A stretch of DNA of 64,000 bases. It comes from an uncultured Acidimicrobiia bacterium. Lineage in GTDB: Bacteria; Acidobacteriota; Terriglobia; Versatilivoradales; Versatilivoraceae. The stretch spans positions 1 to 64,000 of the forward strand of contig CAWBAT010000004.1 of NCBI GenBank assembly GCA_963786955.1, given 5' to 3'. The notes below the pieces were generated by a model. That model had not been told where the DNA came from, made no database searches, and worked only from the letters and a program-made list of their open reading frames with translations. The stretch's first letter is position 1. Each line of letters starts with the position of its first letter. The position numbers and the translations under genes are program-made. Of the stretch, positions 313 to 29,879 are shown piece after piece.

Positions 313-920
313 ACAGTACTCAGTAGGCAAGCCTTTGGCACAGTGCCAGCTGCTCATAGGGGGTCTTAACCGTGGCTTACGAGTTAAGCAGACTCGCAGG
401 GTTGAATTTTGGATACGGACATGGCCGGAATCATGCATTTCACTAATTTTTTCCACTTCATGGAAGCAACCGAGGCGGCCTTTCTTCGGTCGCTGGGGTT
501 TTCGATTTTCCGGGGACCGAAGAAGGGCAAGTGGGATGGCCTAGGGTGCACGCGGATTGTGATTTCAGGCATCCCTTGCGTTTTGAGGATTTAGTGGAAT
601 TCATCTTCTGGTTCGGGAGAAGAAGGAACGAGCTCTTGTTTACACTTTCATTTTTCGTAAGCTCAACGCAATCCCTATCCAAGAAGTAGCCAGAGGCACA
701 ATTATTACAACCTGCGTGACCCATGATCCAGTAACCGGCAAAATCGTGCTGTCCCCATTCCCCTGGACTTTGCCGACAAGATAGAGGTCGCACCCAAAGA
801 CCTACTAATATAAACGCAGTATGTTTTGTGACAATTTCCCCCTCACCTCCAGCCCCTCTCCCTTGGGGAGAGACCTCTGAGGTGATAAGTCAACTATTAT
901 TTGCACAGGAAAATGACAAT

Positions 921-2200
921 TTATTCACAAATGGTCTCCGTGGTTGGAGAGGACAATGCTTCTCCCAGGGGAGACCCACGATGCCGCAAGGTAGCCAGGT
1001 AATATTGTTCGTCGTAAGGTGTATGCTTCCTTCCAACAGCGGAACATGATCCGAAGCCATTTGTAGCCCAGGGCGCGCAGTGCCGCGTGATGAGACTTGC
1101 CGGCCGCGCGGAGGCGGTCATAGCAGGTCCGCGCCCACAGGGACCGGCGAATCGACTGTTCCGAGAATTCCTGGACGCTTTGGCGCAAGAATTTCGGACA
1201 AGCCCACCGCCAATGGACCCGATGGGACTTGCCGCTTTTTTCGGTGACTGGGGCGATGCCCGACAGGAGCTGTACTTCGCAGGCCAAGTGAAAACGGTCC
1301 CGATCCGATCCGAACAAAGTCAGGAGGCGGGGGCCCAAAGCCGGCCCGGCCCCGGGGAAACTGTGGAACACATCGTAGTCGGGATGCTTTTCAAACAGCT
1401 CTTTGATTTGTTGGTTAAATTGGGAGATCGATTCGATCAGGGTCCGAACCTGGCACATCAAGGCCTGCACCATCAGGGCTGAGGCCCGGGTGACGGCAGG
1501 GTCTCGCGTAGGGGTTGAGCCTGGCGAATTTCTTCCAGCAGTGAGTCGATCGACCGGCCCGAGGGGCAACCGTGATGGCGGTAAAATTTCTCCAGAGTGG
1601 TCCTGGAACTCCGGCGCAGCTGATCCAGACTGGACCACTTTTGCAGAAAATCGCAAGCCCGCAAGGTGTCGGGATCTCCCGCCCAGGACAAGGCTTGAGG
1701 GAAATAGCCTTTCAACAGGCTGGTGACCTCGTTGGTCAGAGCGGTCTTCTGGTTGACCAGCTTGCGTCGCGCTTCGCTGAGCAGGCGCAGGCAGCGGGTG
1801 TCGGGGTCGTCGGGAACCCAAACGCGGAGCACTTAAAGATGCTTCTCCAGCAGTTCCAGCAAGAGCGCGGCATCGGTGGGATCATCCTTGGCGCCACTGG
1901 GATAAGAGGGCTTTGCGAAACTTGGCCAAGGTTAGAAGGTTGACTGGATAGAGCCGCAAGAAGTCCACGTCCATCAGGGCATACAACAAGGCGCCCCGCG
2001 ATTGCTCCAGGATGATGGCTACCGGGCGGCCCCCAAATCGCAGTCGCAATTGCTGGATCCAAGCTTGCAGGCTTTCCGGTTTTTGGTCCACCACTAGATA
2101 TTCGACGGTGACCAGAGCCGGCCGCCCGCAGACAAATGACATGTTGTTGGTCGGCCCAATCTAAACCAATGAAGGCAGCAATTTCAGAATCAGAACTCAT
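921..2200 (-). pseudogene. IS110 recombinase/transposase, multiply frameshifted
   Basis: Fragments in ORFs 1736..2257, 1882..2142, 1473..1832, 925..1821 and 921..1121 give FIGLDWAD, ILEQSRG, SFPGAGP, APVTEKSGKS and RALGYKWLRIMFRCWK. They are colinear with the intact copy at 27516-28817. Confidence 0.9.
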
Positions 2201-2242
2201 GATCTCCTCCCGTTCTAGGATAAAGAGAAGGAACCTCGCCAG

Positions 2243-2374
2243 CTGGGGCCCGCGCAACCCTTATAGGGGAGTCCTCTCGGGGCAGCCTCTGAGAATGCGT
2301 TTCAGCTCCAGCCCCCTCCCGTTCGAAAGTCTCTCCCTGATCGTCGCACGATCGGTGGTTTGTTCGTAACGGGA
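2243..2374 (-). ncRNA. Bridge-RNA-like target-binding and donor-binding loops of IS110 copy 1
   Basis: Target loop 2317-2374 has stem TCCCGTT/AACGGGA with guides CCACC and GGGAGAG matching the flanking target. Donor loop 2243-2311 has CTCAGAGG and CTATAAG matching the element's own ends. The RNA's 5' and 3' ends are unknown. Confidence 0.8.
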
Positions 2375-2704
2375 GGATGGCGGGTGACAACCCCTCCATT
2401 TAATCCCAATTCCCTCAACGAGGGGTATGGTTCTGTTGGCCTTCATGGCTTTTGCACAAAATCCACAGCTTCCACAAAGAAAGAAAAAGAGGCAAAAAAG
2501 AAAGAAACGCTACGACGGCTATTCATATACTCATCCTCGGGCAACCCTGTTGTACCGACTATAAGGGTGGCCAAAAGCCGGGTGAGGGGAACGATTCAAG
2601 GGTGACCCAAAGTGTAACTTTACTTCGTGCGTTTGTATTAGCTAAGATTTAATGGTTGGGCAGCGACGTTTCTGTGCCGCTTGCTCCAGATCGCAAGACT
2701 TCTC

Positions 2705-26313: not shown

Positions 26314-26948
26314 TCATGACTTTTTGCGCATGTACTCGAGATCCATAATTTTGACCATTTTGCCACTCAGATCAGGCTGCCACAGTTCCGTGAGGTGATT
26401 CCCGTCCGGGTTGATGCTGAGCCTCATTTCTGATTTTCGTGGGCTTAAGGGTGATCGCATCGTAGACCGTCGCGGTTAACTTCGCCGACTTACCGTCCGG
26501 AGCCATAGCCCCTGTGTACCACTCCATGCCCGTGCTGCCCGAATCCATGTAGCATGCCACGTACTTCTGTTGCGACGTTGTCATACCCCGCGTAGCCGAT
26601 GCCGTTGATGGGCTCGCCCATGACGAATCCGGACAGCATCATCTGGATGTAGCGGTGGCCGAGCACCCAGGTGCCAACCGCAACCTGCATCGACTCGATC
26701 GGAGGCTTGGAAGGGTCGAGCCAGACCCGGACCTTCACGTCGAAATTGCCCACCAAAAACTCGAGCTTCTTCTGTCCCTCGCCCGGGTCCATGGCGTTGT
26801 CCATGGCCTTCACGATCGCTGCGTTTCCTGCGGCCGTCGAGCTCACGGGCGCTGGGGCACCCTCCTTCTTCTTATCTTGTGCCAACAGGGGGCTTGCCAG
26901 GGCGAGAATTACGGCCAGTAGAAGTCCCATACGATAGAAGCGCTTCAT
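26314..26948 (-). CDS. DUF1579-family secreted protein, frameshifted
   Basis: PGEGQKKLEFLVGNFD, WVLGHRY, GYAGYDN and MDSGSTG. Confidence 0.75.
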
Positions 26949-27338
26949 CTTCGAACCTCCTTTTCTCATAGAGTCCATGCAGGGAATTTCCGGTTTCAAC
27001 TCTCTTCTTACACGAAACACTATTCTCCCGGCCCTCCTTCGTCAACCTCAAAAACCAGCGGCCTGAAGGGCCGCCACAATCTAGCCCAGGGCAGAACGCA
27101 GGGGCAAGGCCCCGCAGCGCCGCTCCGGGCTTCGCCCTTCACTCTGCCCTTATAGGTATTCAGAGCACGGTAGTGCGAAGTGAAACGGTTAGCAGTAGTG
27201 GCAGCCTCTCTTTCTTTTTTGCTGCTTTTTTCTTTCTCTGTGGAAGCTGTGAGTTCTGTGGAAAACGGTTTAGGAGCGACAGCAGAAGTCTGGACAGGAG
27301 AACGTACTTGAGTGCAGAGTGGAACACACAACACGCAA

Positions 27339-27480
27339 CGCCTGGCTACGAATAACTTGCCCTCACCATGGCGATGGTTAAGCCCAGAGTTTCGAGCCAG
27401 GCGCTGCACCAGGAGCCCTAACGCATTACTCAGATGCGGTCCCCTGAGGACTCTACTATAAGGATTGCGCCGTTTCCTGG
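27339..27480 (+). ncRNA. Bridge-RNA-like target-binding and donor-binding loops of IS110 copy 2
   Basis: Target loop has stem CGCCTGGCT/AGCCAGGCG with guides TGCCCT and AGCCCAG. Donor loop has CTCAGATG and CTATAAG. Confidence 0.82.
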
Positions 27481-27515
27481 CAAGCGTGTTGAAATTCTGC
27501 TGGGAGGTGATTCTC

Positions 27516-28817
27516 ATGACAACATCCTCTGTTCCGATGGAAAGCCCGATCGTGGCCTATGTCGGTTTAGATTGGGCCGATCAACAACATGTCCTCTGTT
27601 GGCGAGCAGCCGATTCCACTCAGGTGCAGACGGCGGTAGTCCGGCAACGCCCCGAGGAACTCCATGCCTGGGTGGCCGAGCTGCGGCAGCGTTTCCCTGA
27701 AGGCCTGGTAGCCATCGCCTTGGAGCAAAGCCGGGGGCCCGTGATCGCGGCCCTGATGCACTATGACTTTCTGCGCCTTTACCCGATTAATCCCAAGTCG
27801 CTGGCCCGCTACCGAGAAACGTTTTCCAGTAGTGGCGCCAAGGATGATCCCAGCGATGCTGCCCTGCTGCTGGATCTGCTGGTCAAACACCGGGAGCGAT
27901 TCTCGCCCTGGGTACCCGACGATGCTTTGAGCCGACAGCTGGCCTTGCGGGTCGAGCATCGCCGCCACCTGGTGGATCTCCAAACGGTGCTGACCCACCA
28001 ACTGAGCAGTTACTTGAAGCTCTATTTCCCTCAAGCCCTCGACTGGAGCGGCGCTCTCGACACTCCTCAGGCCTGCGATTTCCTCCAGCGCTGGCCCACT
28101 CTCGAAGCCGTGCAGAAGGCCCAGCCTGCTCAACTGGAGAAGTTCTACCACCAGCATCATAACCGCCGCCCGCAGTTGATTCGACAGCGGATCGAGCAGA
28201 TTCAACAGGCCAGGCCCTTGACTCAGGACACGGCCTTGGTGGAAGCCTCCTACCGGATGGTCCTGGCCCTAGTCGCCCAACTGCAGCCCTTAATCGCCAC
28301 CCTGCAACAATGGGAAGTGCAGATCGGCCAGCTGTTTGCCCAGCACCCTGATGCCTTGATCTTCACCAGTTTCCCGGGGGCCGGAGCGGTTTTTGCTCCC
28401 CGTCTGCAGGCGGTTTTCGGTTCGCGCCGAGACCGCTTCGGCGCTGCCCAAGACCTGTTGCAGTTCTCGGGGCTGGCCCCGGTCACCCAACGCAGCGGCA
28501 AATCTCGTCAGGTGCATCGCCGCTGGGCGCGTCCGAAATTCCTGCACCAGAGCCTGGTGGAATTTGCTGCCCTGTCGATTCCTCACTGCGGCTGGGCCCG
28601 AGCCCTCTACCACCAGTTGCGCGCCCGGGGCCACCGTCACTGGGCCGCTATTCGAGTGATTGCTTACAAATGGACACGCATCCTGTTTCGTTGTTGGAAA
28701 GAGCGGGTTCCTTATGATGAATCCAAGTATCTTCAAGCCTTGCAGCGGCGCAATCCTCAACTGTGGGTGGCCAGCCAGCAGCCGCCTCCGCCGCGATCCA
28801 AGAAAAAGGCGGCCTGA
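27516..28817 (+). CDS. IS110 DEDD recombinase/transposase
   Basis: VGLDWAD, ALEQSRG and AKDDPSDA give DEDD. SFPGAG and APVTQRSGKS (catalytic Ser region). RBS GGAGGT. Confidence 0.95.
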   Translation: MTTSSVPMESPIVAYVGLDWADQQHVLCWRAADSTQVQTAVVRQRPEELHAWVAELRQRFPEGLVAIALEQSRGPVIAALMHYDFLRLYPINPKSLARYRETFSSSGAKDDPSDAALLLDLLVKHRERFSPWVPDDALSRQLALRVEHRRHLVDLQTVLTHQLSSYLKLYFPQALDWSGALDTPQACDFLQRWPTLEAVQKAQPAQLEKFYHQHHNRRPQLIRQRIEQIQQARPLTQDTALVEASYRMVLALVAQLQPLIATLQQWEVQIGQLFAQHPDALIFTSFPGAGAVFAPRLQAVFGSRRDRFGAAQDLLQFSGLAPVTQRSGKSRQVHRRWARPKFLHQSLVEFAALSIPHCGWARALYHQLRARGHRHWAAIRVIAYKWTRILFRCWKERVPYDESKYLQALQRRNPQLWVASQQPPPPRSKKKAA

Positions 28818-29228
28818 AGGAAATTGGCTGTGAAAAAAATGTACCGGCTTTGAGGATAAATTTACAAGTAACACTTGACAGACCACCTCAGATGTCTGGG
28901 CTATTTTATCTTGCCCTTTCAGGGCAACGGAAATGTCCAATTTTCTGTCCGGGGCCACCGGATTTGAGCTTTTACGAGCTCTCCGAGACGAAGTCTATGG
29001 AGCTCATCGCGGCCCTGAGGAGCTCAGGTGTAGCCTAGCTTCGGGGTCAAGAAATTACATGACTGTGACATTTACAAACCACTGACGGTTATGATGGAGA
29101 AACTATACCTGGAAGGAGGTGAACTTGAGCGTGTTGGGTATCTACTTTAACACCTTTTGCGTTTCAACCGGGACGAACAAGACGTAGTTAAATGTCAACG
29201 GTCCTAATCCTTAAGGAGGATATTTTAA

Positions 29229-29879
29229 ATGAAGAGTAGATTGATACTTCTTGCTGCCCTTTTAAGTCTCTATGCCATCCCGGCAATCGCGGATGACGCA
29301 CCCAAGGCAGAAATTTTTGGGGAGTACTCCTATTTTCGCTTCAATCCAACCCTTCCGGGCATCCGCAACACCAGCTTCAACGGTGGTGGCGGCGGAGTCA
29401 CATTTAACCTAAACAATTTTATCGGAATCAAAGCCGAGTTCATGGGCTATGGCAGCACCAATTACACCATCCCCGCTGGTACAGCAATACCTGGGAGCAA
29501 CCCGGCTGCTGTCACTACGGTTCCAATTACGACTCAGGGCAATATGTTTACCTATTTATTCGGACCTCAAATCACCTATCGCATGCCGAAACTAAATGTC
29601 TTCGGTGAGTTGCTCTTCGGAGGGTCGAACAGCAATGCGTACGCCAACGTGGCCGAAGCCTTTAATGGGGTGGGGGGAAATGTTGCCTCTGGGACCCAGC
29701 ACCCATTCACCATGGCGTTCGGTGGCGGCCTTGACGTGAAAGTCTCCAAAAACTTTGCGGTCCGGCCCGTAGAAATCGATTGGATATTGACCCGCTACAC
29801 CAATCCTTACACGCTGACGAATAACCAGAACAACTTCCGCTACACGGCGGGAGTCGTCTACTACTTCGGAGGCAAGTAG
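29229..29879 (+). CDS. Outer-membrane beta-barrel protein (OmpA-like 8-strand type)
   Basis: Signal peptide, TYLFGPQ, AFGGGLDV, C-terminal GVVYYF; RBS AAGGAGG. Confidence 0.85.
   Translation: MKSRLILLAALLSLYAIPAIADDAPKAEIFGEYSYFRFNPTLPGIRNTSFNGGGGGVTFNLNNFIGIKAEFMGYGSTNYTIPAGTAIPGSNPAAVTTVPITTQGNMFTYLFGPQITYRMPKLNVFGELLFGGSNSNAYANVAEAFNGVGGNVASGTQHPFTMAFGGGLDVKVSKNFAVRPVEIDWILTRYTNPYTLTNNQNNFRYTAGVVYYFGGK

What the first reader, a model, noticed from the sequence alone, without database searches (positions are those of the whole stretch)
27204..27265. Unexplained conserved module 5' of the bridge loops: pyrimidine tract plus three tandem DnaA-box-like 9-mers
Both left ends are ~360 nt, with ~180 nt ahead of the target loop; the whole IS621 bridge RNA is ~177 nt. 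In otherwise diverged sequence both keep TTTCTTTTTTGC..CTTTTTCTTTCT followed by three head-to-tail 9-mers. Copy 2 has TGTGGAAGC TGTGAGTTC TGTGGAAAA (27239-27265). Copy 1 has TGTGGAAGC TGTGGATTT TGTGCAAAA (rc of 2450-2476). The third 9-mer matches the DnaA box consensus TTWTNCACA exactly in both, differing only at N. A DnaA site in the IS50 outside end is a precedent. Inference: this could be a host-factor site coupling excision or bridge-RNA expression to replication, a mini-origin-like module for the circle, or an extra RNA domain or processing site. I do not know of this being described for IS110.
Basis: partly seen in the sequence, partly recalled or inferred. Interest (0 to 1): 0.78.

Follow-up and report, generated by a model that had tools for sequence, protein, structure and literature searches.

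The report
Origin-like DnaA cassette inside insertion sequences
The conserved stretch is a portable DNA cassette, shared by several unrelated families of jumping genes, that combines binding sites for the host replication initiator DnaA with a triplex-prone T-rich mirror repeat, so it may link transposition to host DNA replication.

Summary
Both IS110 left ends carry the tract and the three 9-mers, with 82% identity in the module against 47% in the rest of the left end.

The module is not specific to IS110 or to the bridge RNA. It has three parts:
- a stretch with 3-nt periodicity (27190-27204);
- a perfect 14-nt homopyrimidine mirror repeat with a 5-nt G..C loop (27207-27239, H-DNA type);
- 9-mers abutting the repeat, the last an exact DnaA box.

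The same cassette, in the same order and polarity relative to the nearest element end, lies in a DDE-transposon remnant of this genome. Elsewhere it lies in IS110, IS3-like, other rve and IS21 elements and in elements with unassigned ORFs. Only 4 of 78 related IS110 loci have it.

An exact box sits 17-19 nt after the repeat in many independent cases. It occurs in 15 of 67 metagenome hits, 11 of 1810 control windows and 0 of 80 viral hits. The box type, TTTTCCACA, is the one flanking dnaA in five genomes of the phylum.

My best reading (about 0.4) is a DnaA-binding, origin-like unwinding cassette that serves the replicative copy-out step. No binding or function was tested. I found no prior description.

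The parts
27149..28897 (+). IS110-family element 'copy 2', 1747 bp counting one CT core. The cores are at 27149-27150 and 28896-28897.
   Evidence: An empty-site joint 27148->28896 skips 1747 nt with 2 ambiguous letters. It is seen in contigs of DNA run X1 (2 contigs, side 32) and RNA-library run X19 (1 contig, side 29) (laid at likeness 85, so corroborative only). It fits the CT at both ends read.
27151..27515 (+). Left non-coding end (LE), 365 nt. It holds the cassette and then the presumed bridge-RNA core.
   Evidence: The donor-loop guide words CTCAGATG (27429-27436, the same as the right end) and CTATAAGG (27456-27463, the reverse complement of the left-end start) were read. The guide assignment is inference by analogy with IS621 (PMC11208160, passages).
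27190..27204 (+). Trinucleotide-periodic stretch TAG CAG TAG TGG CAG (DnaA-trio-like; 4 of 5 triplets fit NAN).
   Evidence: Across 44 module instances, identity at lag 3 is 0.45 and at lag 6 is 0.415, against 0.20-0.24 at other lags. Control windows give 0.27-0.31.
27207..27220 (+). Left arm of the homopyrimidine mirror repeat, TCTCTTTCTTTTTT.
27221..27225 (+). Loop GCTGC between the arms. In 37 of 38 arm/loop combinations the loop is 5 nt and reads G..C.
27226..27239 (+). Right arm TTTTTTCTTTCTCT, the exact mirror image of the left arm.
   Evidence: 28 of 31 C positions outside the forced search pattern are mirrored.
27239..27247 (+). 9-mer 1, TGTGGAAGC. It is a weak box (7 of 9 to TGTGGATAA) that abuts the right arm (offset 0).
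   Evidence: A box with at most 1 mismatch lies at offset 0 in 15 instances.
27248..27256 (+). 9-mer 2, TGTGAGTTC, degenerate.
27257..27265 (+). 9-mer 3, TGTGGAAAA. It is the reverse complement of TTTTCCACA, an exact DnaA-box consensus, at offset 18 from the right arm.
   Evidence: exact boxes cluster at offsets 17-19. It is the same 9-mer as 12 of 13 exact boxes flanking dnaA in five genomes of the phylum.
28829..28837 (+). Second exact DnaA-box 9-mer of the element (TGTGAAAAA), in the right end, about 67 nt from the terminus.
   Evidence: This and 27257 are the only exact boxes in the 1747-bp element. Copy 1 has TGTGAATAA at the aligned place (929-921, - strand).
28875..28880 (+). TTGACA, the predicted -35 of a promoter formed only on the circle junction. 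The -10, TATAGG, is at 27151-27156, and the spacer across the CT core is 17 nt.
   Evidence: Read. The principle comes from PMC11208160 (passages). Not tested here.
27516..28817 (+). IS110-family recombinase gene, 433 aa, intact.
   Evidence: Pfam DEDD_Tnp_IS110 (5.3e-24) and Transposase_20 (8.8e-10).
2450..2507 (-). Copy-1 cassette. Left arm 2507-2494, loop GCCTC 2493-2489, right arm 2488-2476 (one T shorter than in its two sister copies), 9-mers 2476-2450.
871..2565 (-). IS110-family element 'copy 1' with a degraded recombinase gene. Boundaries are inferred from CT cores at 2565-2564 and 872-871.
   Evidence: The tblastn match is in three pieces (2151-1900, 1898-1572, 1509-1027). No empty site was seen for this copy.

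Best explanation
The segment is the core of a roughly 75-90-bp DNA-level cassette that works with the host replication initiator DnaA. It is not part of the bridge RNA.

Reading inward from the element's end, the cassette has three parts: (1) a 3-nt periodic, DnaA-trio-like stretch; (2) a homopyrimidine/homopurine mirror repeat that can fold into an intramolecular triplex (H-DNA) or melt easily under negative supercoiling; (3) DnaA boxes, a weak one abutting the repeat and a consensus one two helical turns further in.

What is shown:
- the anatomy;
- its conservation, with mirror-preserving variation;
- its fixed polarity relative to the nearest terminus;
- its presence in several transposase families;
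- its match to the host's own oriC box type and box-trio polarity.

What is inferred: DnaA binds the boxes, and together with the triplex-prone tract it opens the duplex near the element's end, as at a chromosomal origin. The opening then helps the host replication step that copy-out transposition needs. That step could be helicase or primosome loading on the strand-transfer intermediate, second-strand synthesis, or transient replication of the excised circle. Folding of the mirror repeat would also bring the boxes next to the trio-like stretch. Which of these sub-steps is served is unknown.
For: Anatomy and conservation:
- Module identity between the two IS110 types is 82% (51 of 62), against 47% (147 of 312) in the rest of the left end.
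- The same cassette lies in a 790-bp DDE (weak rve) remnant of this genome at C6:975113-975902 and C3:362265-363054, with four TGTG 9-mers.
- It is in IS110 left ends of four other genomes of the phylum sample (G361, G393, G190, G282), and in another setting at a contig end in unpublished G049.
- It is in 4 of 78 related IS110 loci: L034, L103, L107, L109.

Spread across families:
- A metagenome scan with the inner T pattern returned 80 fetched loci.
- Their module-bearing members encode IS110, IS3-like (HTH_21+rve+rve_3), other rve and IS21 IstB proteins, plus unassigned ORFs.
- Orientation is regular. In 9 of 9 IS110 loci the ORF is sense and 158-216 nt downstream.
- In 19 of 20 rve, IS3-like and IS21 loci the cassette is antisense, with the 3' end of the gene 110 nt or less past the repeat, or overlapping it by 11-12 nt. 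In L148 and L184 the reading frame runs through the cassette.

Boxes:
- 25 of 77 mirror instances have an exact TGTGNAWAA/TTWTNCACA within 60 nt downstream, and 46 of 77 have one with at most 1 mismatch.
- Among metagenome hits the count is 15 of 67, against 11 of 1810 control windows and 0 of 80 viral-contig hits of the same pattern.
- Offsets of exact boxes are 18 (9), 19 (5), 17 (3) and other offsets (7).
- The arrangement of the boxes varies (direct at 9-10 nt, direct at about 19 nt, inverted pair) while the 9-mer is kept. That pattern suits a protein site.

Host match:
- 12 of 13 exact boxes flanking dnaA in five genomes of the phylum are TTTTCCACA.
- 9 of the 10 distinct instances from this genome, the phylum sample and the related IS110 loci carry TGTGGAAAA as the exact downstream box. 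The copy-1 type carries TGTGCAAAA.
- In the own oriC, TTTTCCACA-N15-CTACTATTACTA gives, on the trio strand, trios 5' of TGTGGAAAA. That is the polarity of the cassette.

Mirror symmetry:
- There are 38 distinct arm/loop combinations, and 28 of 31 free C positions are mirrored.

Context from papers:
- IS110 elements are now reported to excise by copy-out, through a single strand (Sun 2025, abstract; Xie 2026, abstract and discussion).
- A DnaA box on ssDNA can nucleate DnaB loading and replication (PMC6127211, passages).
Against: - No binding, unwinding, triplex or replication assay was possible. Everything functional is inference.
- The box-to-trio distance is 34 nt here (27205-27238) and a 27-45-nt mirror unit elsewhere, plus any extra letters. 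This breaks the published rule for the origin unwinding unit, a spacer of at most 16 bp (PMC8287927).
- Many AT-rich instances carry TGTT(G/A/C)ATAA instead of TGTG.ATAA. That is a mismatch at a position which, by recall, matters for E. coli DnaA. Their hosts are unknown.
- The trio-like triplets vary (TAG, TAC, CAT, GAT, and TCG/TGG in GC-rich cases). Not all have the central A.
- The cassette is absent from most related IS110 elements (74 of 78 loci), so it is dispensable.
- One bearer (L181, DUF772) has no box with at most one mismatch within 25 nt of the repeat. It comes from a family that I do not know to use copy-out.
- The T pattern used in the scan forces part of the mirror, so prevalence and arm statistics are biased. 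The free-position count corrects for this only in the metagenome rows. In the 10 rows from this genome, the phylum sample and the related loci all positions were counted, though those rows were found by likeness to the query.
- ssDNA hairpins presenting a duplex box are weak in most instances. An A-site-like mechanism is therefore not generally supported.
Confidence: 0.4

Rival explanations
1. Regulatory roadblock or sensor. DnaA, or another protein that reads TGTGNAWAA, bound beside a triplex-prone tract blocks or gates transcription that enters the element from the flank. It could also gate circle-junction transcription. Transposase and guide-RNA expression would then follow the host's DnaA-ATP level or cell cycle, with no role in DNA synthesis.
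For: - The cassette always points inward from the nearest end, so RNA entering from outside meets it in one orientation.
- In copy 2 it lies between the predicted junction promoter and the bridge-RNA core.
- H-DNA analogues are reported to block transcription (PMC4538819, search listing and start of abstract only).
- DnaA competes at Tn5 ends and its level depends on growth rate (PMC3347997, passages).
Against: - In rve-type elements the cassette lies after the transposase gene, where it cannot gate sense expression.
- The 3-nt periodic stretch and the strict mirror symmetry are not needed for a simple operator.
- A block in the IS110 left end would also hinder the element's own junction-promoter transcript.
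Confidence: 0.2
2. Architectural host-factor site. DnaA binding plus phased A/T tracts bends or kinks the DNA near one end. This helps the recombinase or transposase assemble its synaptic complex, as IHF or DnaA do for other transposons.
For: - The cassette is subterminal at one end only.
- The two T6 runs start 11 bp apart (27215 and 27226, my count), close to one helical turn.
- Host proteins, DnaA among them, are named as promoters of transposition, and the Tn5 ends hold a DnaA site (PMC3347997, passages).
Against: - The same cassette serves mechanistically unrelated enzymes: the DEDD/serine bridge recombinase, DDE rve enzymes and IS21. It lies 50-115 nt from the terminus, outside the end-recognition sequences.
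- Bending does not require mirror symmetry with covarying segment lengths.
Confidence: 0.12
3. RNA-level element. The tract and 9-mers form a 5' domain, a processing site or a protein-binding platform of the left-end transcript (an extension of the bridge RNA).
For: - If the junction promoter fires at about 27163, the cassette is transcribed at about +28 to +103 (inference).
- One contig from an RNA library covers 27145-27630 of a related copy without a break (DNA carry-over is not excluded).
Against: - The cassette is antisense to, and 3' of, the gene in rve-type elements.
- It is absent from 74 of 78 related IS110 loci, whose left ends run about 240-320 nt in five of the six groups measured and 439 nt in the sixth. 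A seventh group gave no usable boundary.
- The left-end RNA fold gives z = 0.55.
- No Rfam family matches at E <= 10.
- A mirror repeat cannot pair with itself.
- The number, spacing and orientation of the boxes vary.
Confidence: 0.08
4. Passenger. The cassette is a small selfish or hitch-hiking sequence, such as a remnant of a miniature element or of an origin. It spreads between insertion sequences by recombination and does nothing for them.
For: - Its distribution within the IS110 clade is sporadic (4 of 78).
- Cassettes in otherwise unrelated elements of one genome are nearly identical.
- In some rve-type loci an inverted copy of the terminal repeat flanks the cassette on its inner side (L125, L156, L170, L173; read).
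Against: - Its position and polarity relative to the terminus are fixed in all families.
- Mirror symmetry is kept through many arm variants, and a consensus box is kept at a fixed offset. Both indicate purifying selection on the parts.
- All six copies found in the own genome lie inside IS sequences.
Confidence: 0.1

Closest known systems
Basal unwinding system (BUS) of bacterial chromosome origins: DnaA boxes plus DnaA-trios (PMC8287927, passages read)
   Same: It has DnaA-box 9-mers of the host's oriC type and a neighbouring run of NAN-type trinucleotides on the strand that reads 5'-trios...TGTGGAAAA-3'. That is the polarity seen at this organism's own dnaA-dnaN origin. T-rich, easily melted DNA lies beside the boxes.
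   Different: - The cassette lies in mobile elements, not beside dnaA.
- A 27-45-nt mirror repeat separates boxes and trios, where the BUS rule allows at most 16 bp.
- The triplets are more varied.
- Unwinding was not tested.
DnaA site in the IS50/Tn5 ends (PMC3347997, passages)
   Same: A transposable element carries a DnaA box near an end, and a host replication protein is implicated in transposition.
   Different: - In Tn5 a single box lies inside the 19-bp end bound by the transposase.
- Here there are 1-4 boxes 50-115 nt from the terminus, outside any end-recognition sequence.
- They are always coupled to a mirror repeat and a periodic stretch, and are shared by several families.
H-DNA / H-palindromes: homopurine-homopyrimidine mirror repeats (PMC11667243 and PMC4538819, search listing and start of abstract only)
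   Same: It is a perfect homopyrimidine mirror repeat with arms of 10-20 nt and a 5-nt spacer. This is the defining sequence requirement for an intramolecular pyrimidine-motif triplex.
   Different: - It is short, T-rich, bacterial and IS-borne.
- It has a conserved G..C loop and fixed neighbours.
- Triplex formation was not shown.
- The abundant bacterial triplex motifs of Holder 2015 (PMC4666352; abstract, section 16 and passages) are a different G/C-rich three-segment motif. Those authors reported finding no remnants of transposases or integrases around the TMECO sites.
ABC-primosome A site / single-strand initiation signals (PMC6127211, passages)
   Same: A DnaA box used outside oriC can load DnaB and start DNA synthesis on single-stranded circles. 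That would fit the single-stranded IS110 circles reported in 2026.
   Different: The A site needs a hairpin that presents the box as duplex. The window's cassette and most others fold weakly as ssDNA. Only 3 of 9 members of one subgroup have a strong box-bearing hairpin upstream of the repeat.
IS621-type left end with bridge RNA (PMC11208160, passages)
   Same: It shares a CT core, a promoter split across the circle junction, and a donor-loop-like segment with words matching both element ends. The recombinase has the DEDD and Tnp domains.
   Different: In IS621 the 177-nt RNA starts right at the junction promoter. Here about 115 nt (27151-27265), including the cassette, precede the presumed RNA core. 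Left ends of relatives without the cassette are about 45-125 nt shorter in five of the six groups measured, and 74 nt longer in the sixth.

Membership tests
DnaA box (TTWTNCACA) site | 9-mer match to the consensus | tested here: met
   27257-27265 and copy-1 2458-2450 match exactly. 9-mers 1 and 2 do not.
DnaA box (TTWTNCACA) site | Conserved in homologous or analogous elements beyond chance | tested here: met
   An exact box is present in 25 of 77 mirror instances. Among metagenome hits it is 15 of 67, against 11 of 1810 control windows and 0 of 80 viral hits. Offsets cluster at 17-19.
DnaA box (TTWTNCACA) site | Same variant as the host's origin boxes | tested here: met
   12 of 13 exact boxes flanking dnaA in 5 genomes of the phylum are TTTTCCACA. 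9 of the 10 distinct instances from this genome, the phylum sample and the related IS110 loci carry TGTGGAAAA as the exact downstream box. The hosts of the TGTT-type variants are unknown.
DnaA box (TTWTNCACA) site | Bound by DnaA | not testable with these tools
   This needs EMSA, footprinting or ChIP.
Origin basal unwinding system (BUS) | DnaA box with at most 2 mismatches | tested here: met
   The rule is from PMC8287927.
Origin basal unwinding system (BUS) | At least three NAN trinucleotides | tested here: inconclusive
   Copy 2 has TAG CAG TAG TGG CAG, 4 of 5 as NAN. Periodicity at lags 3 and 6 is 0.45 and 0.415 in 44 instances. Several GC-rich instances use TCG or TGG.
Origin basal unwinding system (BUS) | Spacer of 0-16 bp between box and first trio | tested here: not met
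   34 nt (27205-27238) separate the trio-like stretch from the first 9-mer. Elsewhere the separation is a 27-45-nt mirror unit plus any extra letters.
Origin basal unwinding system (BUS) | Located in oriC, required for initiation | tested here: not met
   The cassette lies inside a 1747-bp insertion sequence. The organism's dnaA-dnaN origin is on another contig.
H-DNA-forming H-palindrome | Homopurine/homopyrimidine tract with mirror symmetry and a short spacer | tested here: met
   The arms are 14 nt and perfectly mirrored, with a 5-nt loop. Symmetry is kept in 38 arm/loop variants, and 28 of 31 free C positions are mirrored.
H-DNA-forming H-palindrome | Forms a triplex under supercoiling or low pH | not testable with these tools
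   This needs chemical or nuclease probing. The folding tools here do not model triplexes.
Bridge RNA (IS110 left-end ncRNA) | Conserved across left ends of related recombinases, with a conserved fold | tested here: not met
   Only 4 of 78 related loci have the cassette. The fold gives z = 0.55. There is no Rfam match. The cassette also occurs in non-IS110 elements.
Bridge RNA (IS110 left-end ncRNA) | Transcribed as part of the ncRNA | not tested
   I found no raw-read RNA data for this organism. Contigs cannot show RNA ends.
Tn5/IS50-type terminal DnaA site | Box lies within the end sequence bound by the transposase | tested here: not met
   The boxes lie 88-114 nt inside the left-end start (27151). 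The right-end box is about 58 nt from the last right-end base before the core.
ABC-primosome A site | ssDNA hairpin presenting a duplex DnaA box | tested here: not met
   DNA folds of the box regions give -0.9 to -7.6 kcal/mol (copy 2 -5.0, z = -1.81), with z between -1.9 and +0.74 (median about -0.2). In copy 2 the exact box is not held in a duplex stem. Only L147 has an 8-bp box hairpin. Upstream box hairpins are strong in L128, L153 and L160 only (3 of 9).

The most novel reading that the evidence does not exclude
Insertion sequences of several families carry a portable, origin-like 'replication starter'. DnaA binds the boxes. Negative supercoiling folds the T-rich mirror repeat into a triplex hinge, which places the boxes next to the trio stretch and exposes single-stranded DNA. 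The host helicase or primosome is then loaded at the element's end. This would be the missing cis-acting site for the replication step of copy-out-paste-in transposition, which by the 2025-2026 reports includes the conversion or amplification of single-stranded IS110 circles. It would also be a natural supercoil- and DnaA-gated switch built from H-DNA.
Probability: 0.3. Interest if true: 0.9.

Novelty: new variant of a known kind. Interest (0 to 1): 0.78.

Why it matters
[quoted passage not shown] This pathway is used by IS3, IS21 and others and, according to 2025-2026 preprints, by IS110 bridge recombinases. No cis-acting site for that step is known to me. A conserved, easily mutated cassette that looks like the unwinding half of a chromosomal origin gives a direct experimental handle.

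It would also be a rare case of a selected H-DNA motif with a defined partner in bacteria.

It bears on bridge-recombinase engineering too. Natural donors may carry accessory DNA that raises circle yield. Left-end length is not all guide RNA, and the extra roughly 115 nt here are not.

Even if the function proves regulatory, a module shared across transposase families and phyla is a new piece of IS anatomy. Annotation pipelines and RNA-motif searches should know about it.

Tried and rejected
- **Rfam.** A scan of 26500-29500 at E <= 10 gave nothing on the cassette. The only hits were weak, sub-threshold Acido-Lenti-1 matches in the flanks.
- **RNA fold.** The fold of 27160-27515 gave z = 0.55, so there is no RNA-structure signal.
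- **Promoter scan.** A sigma-70 scan of 26950-27600 found no + strand promoter in or after the cassette. I therefore dropped the idea that the cassette is the bridge-RNA promoter or its UP element.
- **ssDNA hairpins.** Hairpins presenting a box are weak. The A-site model is rejected for the window's copy.
- **Third purine segment.** I looked for one in cis, which would allow an intrastrand triplex. None lies near the IS cassettes. It exists only in non-IS loci (L115, L124, L172, L182, L254, L266, L277).
- **Plasmid collection.** BLAST of the copy-2 left end and of an AT-rich IS110 left end (L157) gave no match. I can therefore name no curated IS that carries the cassette.
- **Read laying.** All runs are held as contigs, so RNA starts, ends and levels cannot be read. 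The uneven cover of the two RNA libraries across the left end says nothing. The RNA-library contig over 27145-27630 may be DNA carry-over.
- **Right-end box in relatives.** It is present in 1 of 23 cassette-less loci and 0 of 3 cassette-bearing loci. It is therefore a feature of the two IS types of this genome only.
- **Holder 2015 triplex survey**. It describes a different motif, with no link to mobile elements.
- **The search of earlier findings.** No earlier findings were seen.
- **Not consulted.** Supplements of the bridge-RNA papers and of the bioRxiv preprints were not consulted, and the preprints' supplements are closed. Left-end alignments there could show the cassette.
Full report
**1.

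The + strand at 27207-27265 reads TCTCTTTCTTTTTT GCTGC TTTTTTCTTTCTCT. The last T of that tract starts three head-to-tail 9-mers: TGTGGAAGC, TGTGAGTTC and TGTGGAAAA. The reverse strand at 2507-2450 reads TTTCTTTCTTTTTT GCCTC TTTTTCTTTCTTT, followed by TGTGGAAGC, TGTGGATTT and TGTGCAAAA.

In the alignment of the two left ends, 51 of 62 module columns are identical. In the rest of the left end 147 of 312 are identical. The two recombinases share only about 52-55% of residues.

Three TGTG words at 9-10-nt spacing occur 10 times in the whole 5.65-Mb genome on both strands. Eight of the ten are in this module. Single exact TTWTNCACA words are at chance level genome-wide: 303 found, against about 305 by my composition estimate.

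**2. Where the module sits**

Copy 2 is an intact IS110-family element. Its 433-aa ORF at 27516-28817 carries DEDD_Tnp_IS110 and Transposase_20.

Contigs of a DNA run (two) and of an RNA library (one) join 27148 to 28896. They skip 1747 nt, with a 2-nt ambiguity. This was laid at likeness 85, so it is corroborative only. It fits an empty target site with a CT core, and CT is present at 27149-27150 and 28896-28897.

Joining the ends gives TTGACA (28875-28880), a 17-nt spacer across the core, and TATAGG (27151-27156). That is a promoter split over the circle junction, as described for IS621 (PMC11208160, passages). It is a prediction only.

The words CTCAGATG (27429-27436) and CTATAAGG (27456-27463) match the right-end and left-end termini. 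They mark a donor-loop-like segment, by analogy.

The left end is 365 nt. The module lies 40-115 nt into it, upstream of the presumed guide-RNA core. Relatives without the module have left ends of roughly 240-320 nt in five of the six groups measured and 439 nt in the sixth. For a seventh group the method gave no usable boundary.

**3. What the 'pyrimidine tract' is**

It is a perfect homopyrimidine mirror repeat: arms of 14 nt at 27207-27220 and 27226-27239, and a loop GCTGC. The copy-1 type has TTTCTTTCTTTTTT / TTTTTTCTTTCTTT in its two sister copies.

Across 38 distinct arm/loop combinations, the segment pattern of the left arm is mirrored in the right arm. One example is TTTT-C-TT-C-TTT-C-TTTTTT | TTTTTT-C-TTT-C-TT-C-TTTT in L169. 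Of 31 C positions lying outside the part forced by my search pattern, 28 are mirrored. In the 10 rows that did not come from the pattern scan all positions were counted, although those rows were found by likeness to the query. The loop is 5 nt and reads G..C in 37 of the 38 combinations.

Mirror symmetry of a homopurine/homopyrimidine tract is the sequence requirement for H-DNA. It cannot give a hairpin.

Immediately 5' of the left arm lies a 3-nt periodic stretch, TAG CAG TAG TGG CAG at 27190-27204. In 44 module instances, identity at lag 3 is 0.45 and at lag 6 is 0.415, against 0.20-0.24 at other lags. Control windows give 0.27-0.31.

**4. The module is not an IS110 feature**

In the own genome it occurs in:
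- copy 2;
- the three copies of the copy-1 type (C4:2k, C4:199.7k, C3:348.6k);
- a 790-bp remnant of a DDE element (C6:975113-975902 and C3:362265-363054; weak rve match).

In the remnant it has four 9-mers, TGTGAATGA, TGTGGAAAA, TGTGAAAAT and TGTGGATCA. There it lies antisense to, and at the 3' end of, the transposase frame. A fifth IS110 relative, at C8:262k, lacks it.

In a 401-genome sample of the phylum, BLAST gave matches in 21 genomes. By reading them, I saw the composite module in G000 and five others: G361, G393, G190, G282 and G049 (the last unpublished). A degenerate form is in G263. The rest were T-rich chance matches.

Of 78 loci encoding relatives of the recombinase (mostly Acidobacteriota, 48-56% identity; 68 distinct left ends), four have it: L034, L103, L107 and L109.

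**5. The module is widespread**

Reading them shows the same order again and again: an element boundary, 30-90 nt, 3-nt repeats such as TACTACTATTACTAC, the T-rich mirror repeat, then 9-mers such as TGTGAATTA...TGTGGAAAA or ...TGTGGATAA. The remaining hits are lysine-rich coding or other low-complexity DNA.

I ran Pfam on 85 ORFs of at least 230 aa (of 162 of at least 150 aa). It finds these proteins in the loci of the scan that hold a mirror repeat; those marked with an asterisk lack a box with at most one mismatch within 25 nt of the repeat, so they are not counted as module-type:
- IS110 recombinases in 9 loci (L187*);
- IS3-like proteins (HTH_21+rve+rve_3) in 9 loci (L128*, L176*);
- other rve proteins in 10 loci;
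- IS21 IstB in 1 locus;
- DUF772 in 1 locus (L181*);
- unassigned 382-446-aa ORFs and one HTH_28 ORF (L137*, L185*).

The geometry is regular.
- In 9 of 9 IS110 loci the gene is sense, and its frame starts 158-216 nt after the repeat.
- In 19 of 20 rve, IS3-like and IS21 loci the gene is antisense, and its 3' end lies 110 nt or less past the repeat or overlaps it by 11-12 nt. In L148 and L184 the frame runs through the module.
- The four loci with unassigned or HTH_28 ORFs (L117, L185, L137, L175) follow the same pattern.
- The exceptions are L140 (sense, 624 nt away) and L181 (DUF772; antisense, but on the trio side, 77 nt upstream).

The rule is therefore: element end, then periodic stretch, then mirror repeat, then boxes, then interior.

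**6. The 9-mers behave as DnaA boxes**

I found 82 mirror instances. Five were dropped for having fewer than 30 nt of downstream sequence, leaving 77. Of these, 25 have an exact TGTGNAWAA/TTWTNCACA within 60 nt downstream and 46 have one with at most one mismatch.

Among the metagenome instances, with false hits included, the count is 15 of 67. That compares with 11 of 1810 control windows from the same loci and 0 of 80 hits of the same T pattern in viral contigs.

Exact boxes lie at offsets 18 (9 cases), 19 (5), 17 (3) and other offsets (7). A weaker box abuts the arm at offset 0 in 15 cases.

The arrangement differs between lineages: three at 9 nt here, two about 19 nt apart, or an inverted pair such as AATTCACA-N6-TGTGGATAA. 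The 9-mer itself is kept. That suits a protein site and not an RNA fold or a promoter.

The organism has one dnaA. The dnaA-dnaN spacer holds TTTTCCACA twice and TTATCCACA once. It also reads TTTTCCACA-N15-CTACTATTACTA. On the trio strand this gives trios 5' of TGTGGAAAA, which is the polarity of the IS cassette.

In five genomes of the phylum, 12 of 13 exact boxes next to dnaA are TTTTCCACA. Of the 10 distinct instances from this genome, the phylum sample and the related IS110 loci, 9 carry TGTGGAAAA as the exact downstream box. The copy-1 type carries TGTGCAAAA. AT-rich metagenome instances mostly use TGTGGATAA or TGTGAATAA.

Within copy 2 the only other exact box is TGTGAAAAA at 28829-28837 in the right end. 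Copy 1 has TGTGAATAA at the aligned place.

**7. What it is not**

- It is not a member of the origin basal unwinding system as defined by box, spacer of at most 16 bp, and at least three NAN trinucleotides (PMC8287927). The spacer rule fails and the location is not oriC.
- It is not a Tn5-type terminal site, because the boxes lie outside the termini.
- It is not an ABC-primosome A site in this copy, because the ssDNA folds are weak. Three of nine members of a subgroup do carry a strong box-bearing hairpin upstream of the repeat.
- It is not an RNA domain, and it is not a + strand sigma-70 promoter.

**8. How it most likely works**

The features are DnaA boxes of the host's type, a trio-like stretch with origin polarity, and a supercoil-sensitive, easily opened mirror repeat between them. 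All are placed near one terminus in elements that form circles. These features are best explained by an origin-like DnaA-dependent unwinding site. Folding of the repeat would also bring the boxes and trios together.

Two preprints report that IS110 elements excise by copy-out, IS621 as a single-stranded circle (10.1101/2025.10.25.684509, abstract; 10.64898/2026.08.31.748434, abstract and discussion). This puts IS110 beside the IS3 and IS21 families, which by recall need host replication to resolve their intermediates. DnaA can nucleate DnaB loading away from oriC (PMC6127211, passages).

I therefore put about 0.4 on a role in the replicative step. I put less on transcriptional gating, architecture, RNA or passenger readings. 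All functional steps are inference.

**9. Novelty**

Full-text searches found no description of such a cassette. The searches were:
- DnaA box / insertion sequence / transposase / mirror repeat;
- IS110 / DnaA / bridge RNA (of the 20 papers listed, the 19 that hold 'bridge RNA' have no occurrence of 'DnaA');
- H-DNA / insertion sequence / triplex;
- copy-out / DnaA / figure-eight / primosome.

The library lacks most subscription journals, and I did not read supplements, so earlier notes on single elements may exist.

**10. Limits**

- The metagenome and viral scans used one exact T pattern. Prevalence is therefore unknown, and variants with five-T runs (L034, L103, G282) are missed.
- Many contigs are short, so element ends outside this genome are mostly inferred.
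- The hosts of the TGTT-type boxes are unknown.

Noticed in passing
window 28887-28926 (+) and 27059-27091 (-): Weak, sub-threshold Rfam matches to Acido-Lenti-1 RNA (25.6 and 22.8 bits; gathering score 37) lie on both sides of copy 2. The flanks hold short GC hairpins (GGCCTGAAGGGCC, TTGCCCTTTCAGGGCAA). The element seems to have inserted beside or into a repeated hairpin element, as IS110 members often do. Copy 1's right flank also has a hairpin (CTCTCCCCAAGGGAGAG).
   Followed up: partly
window 28829-28837 (+); 929-921 (-): An exact DnaA-box 9-mer lies in the right end of both IS110 types of this genome (TGTGAAAAA and TGTGAATAA) at aligned positions, about 40 nt upstream of the -35 of the predicted junction promoter. 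On the circle it would lie about 165 nt from the left-end box, in the same orientation. It is not seen in the right ends of relatives (1 of 26 loci has any exact box).
   Followed up: yes
window 27483-27455 (- strand): A sigma-70-like site, TTGCCA-17-TATAGT (10 of 12), lies antisense to the left end inside the donor-loop region. Transcription from it would run toward the cassette and give purine-rich RNA. The -35 is not kept in the copy-1 type.
   Followed up: partly
window 871-2565 (-): The copy-1 recombinase gene is broken. The tblastn match falls into three pieces (2151-1900, 1898-1572, 1509-1027). Two sister copies elsewhere (C4:200k, C3:349k) also match in two overlapping pieces.
   Followed up: partly
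own genome C4:214605-214730 (outside the window): A 42-aa fragment 100% identical to the C-terminus of the copy-2 recombinase. It is probably a solo right-end remnant.
   Followed up: no
own genome C6:975113-975902, C3:362265-363054, C8:289858-290408, C4:195253-195555: Four copies of a truncated DDE-element right end share the same inner breakpoint but have different outer extents. Beyond the breakpoint in C6 lies an inverted, related terminal-repeat-like sequence. This suggests nested or rearranged insertions.
   Followed up: partly
L115, L124, L172, L182 (metagenome); L254, L266, L277 (viral contigs): The same T-rich mirror repeat is followed a few nt later by the matching purine tract (e.g. 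AAAGAAAAAAG). This is a three-segment intrastrand triplex or hairpin motif with no boxes and no transposase nearby. It is a different class of element sharing the T pattern.
   Followed up: no
L125, L156, L170, L173: In one rve-type IS family an inverted copy of the terminal repeat (GCCTAAAATAGG... / ...CATTTTAGGC) lies about 170-190 nt inside the end. The cassette is thus bracketed by two inverted repeats, like a miniature element.
   Followed up: no
L128, L153, L160 (and weaker in L107, L109, L113, L118, L146, L148): In one subgroup the 3-nt periodic stretch is replaced by a GC-rich segment ending in (G/T)TTTCCACAGGCC. In three loci it forms a strong hairpin (DNA fold z -4.5 to -9.4) whose stem holds box-like words.
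   Followed up: partly
L064-L078 (Terriglobia MAG, CBDAPB...): A multi-copy IS110 relative without the cassette has an unusually long left end (about 439 nt), with a purine-rich run (GGAGAAGAAGGAGAGAAGAA) about 25 nt from its start.
   Followed up: no
own genome C5:1127094-1127328 (L007 2518-2700): The dnaA-dnaN spacer holds three exact DnaA boxes and a box-N15-CTACTATTACTA unit. This is the likely oriC with a canonical box-trio arrangement.
   Followed up: partly
G190 and G393 (same phylum): The Bac_DnaA profile gave 36 and 30 matches in these two complete genomes. All but the dnaA gene itself are partial matches in frames of mostly 257-299 aa, as IS21 IstB gives. They suggest large IS21-type expansions but were not looked at.
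   Followed up: no
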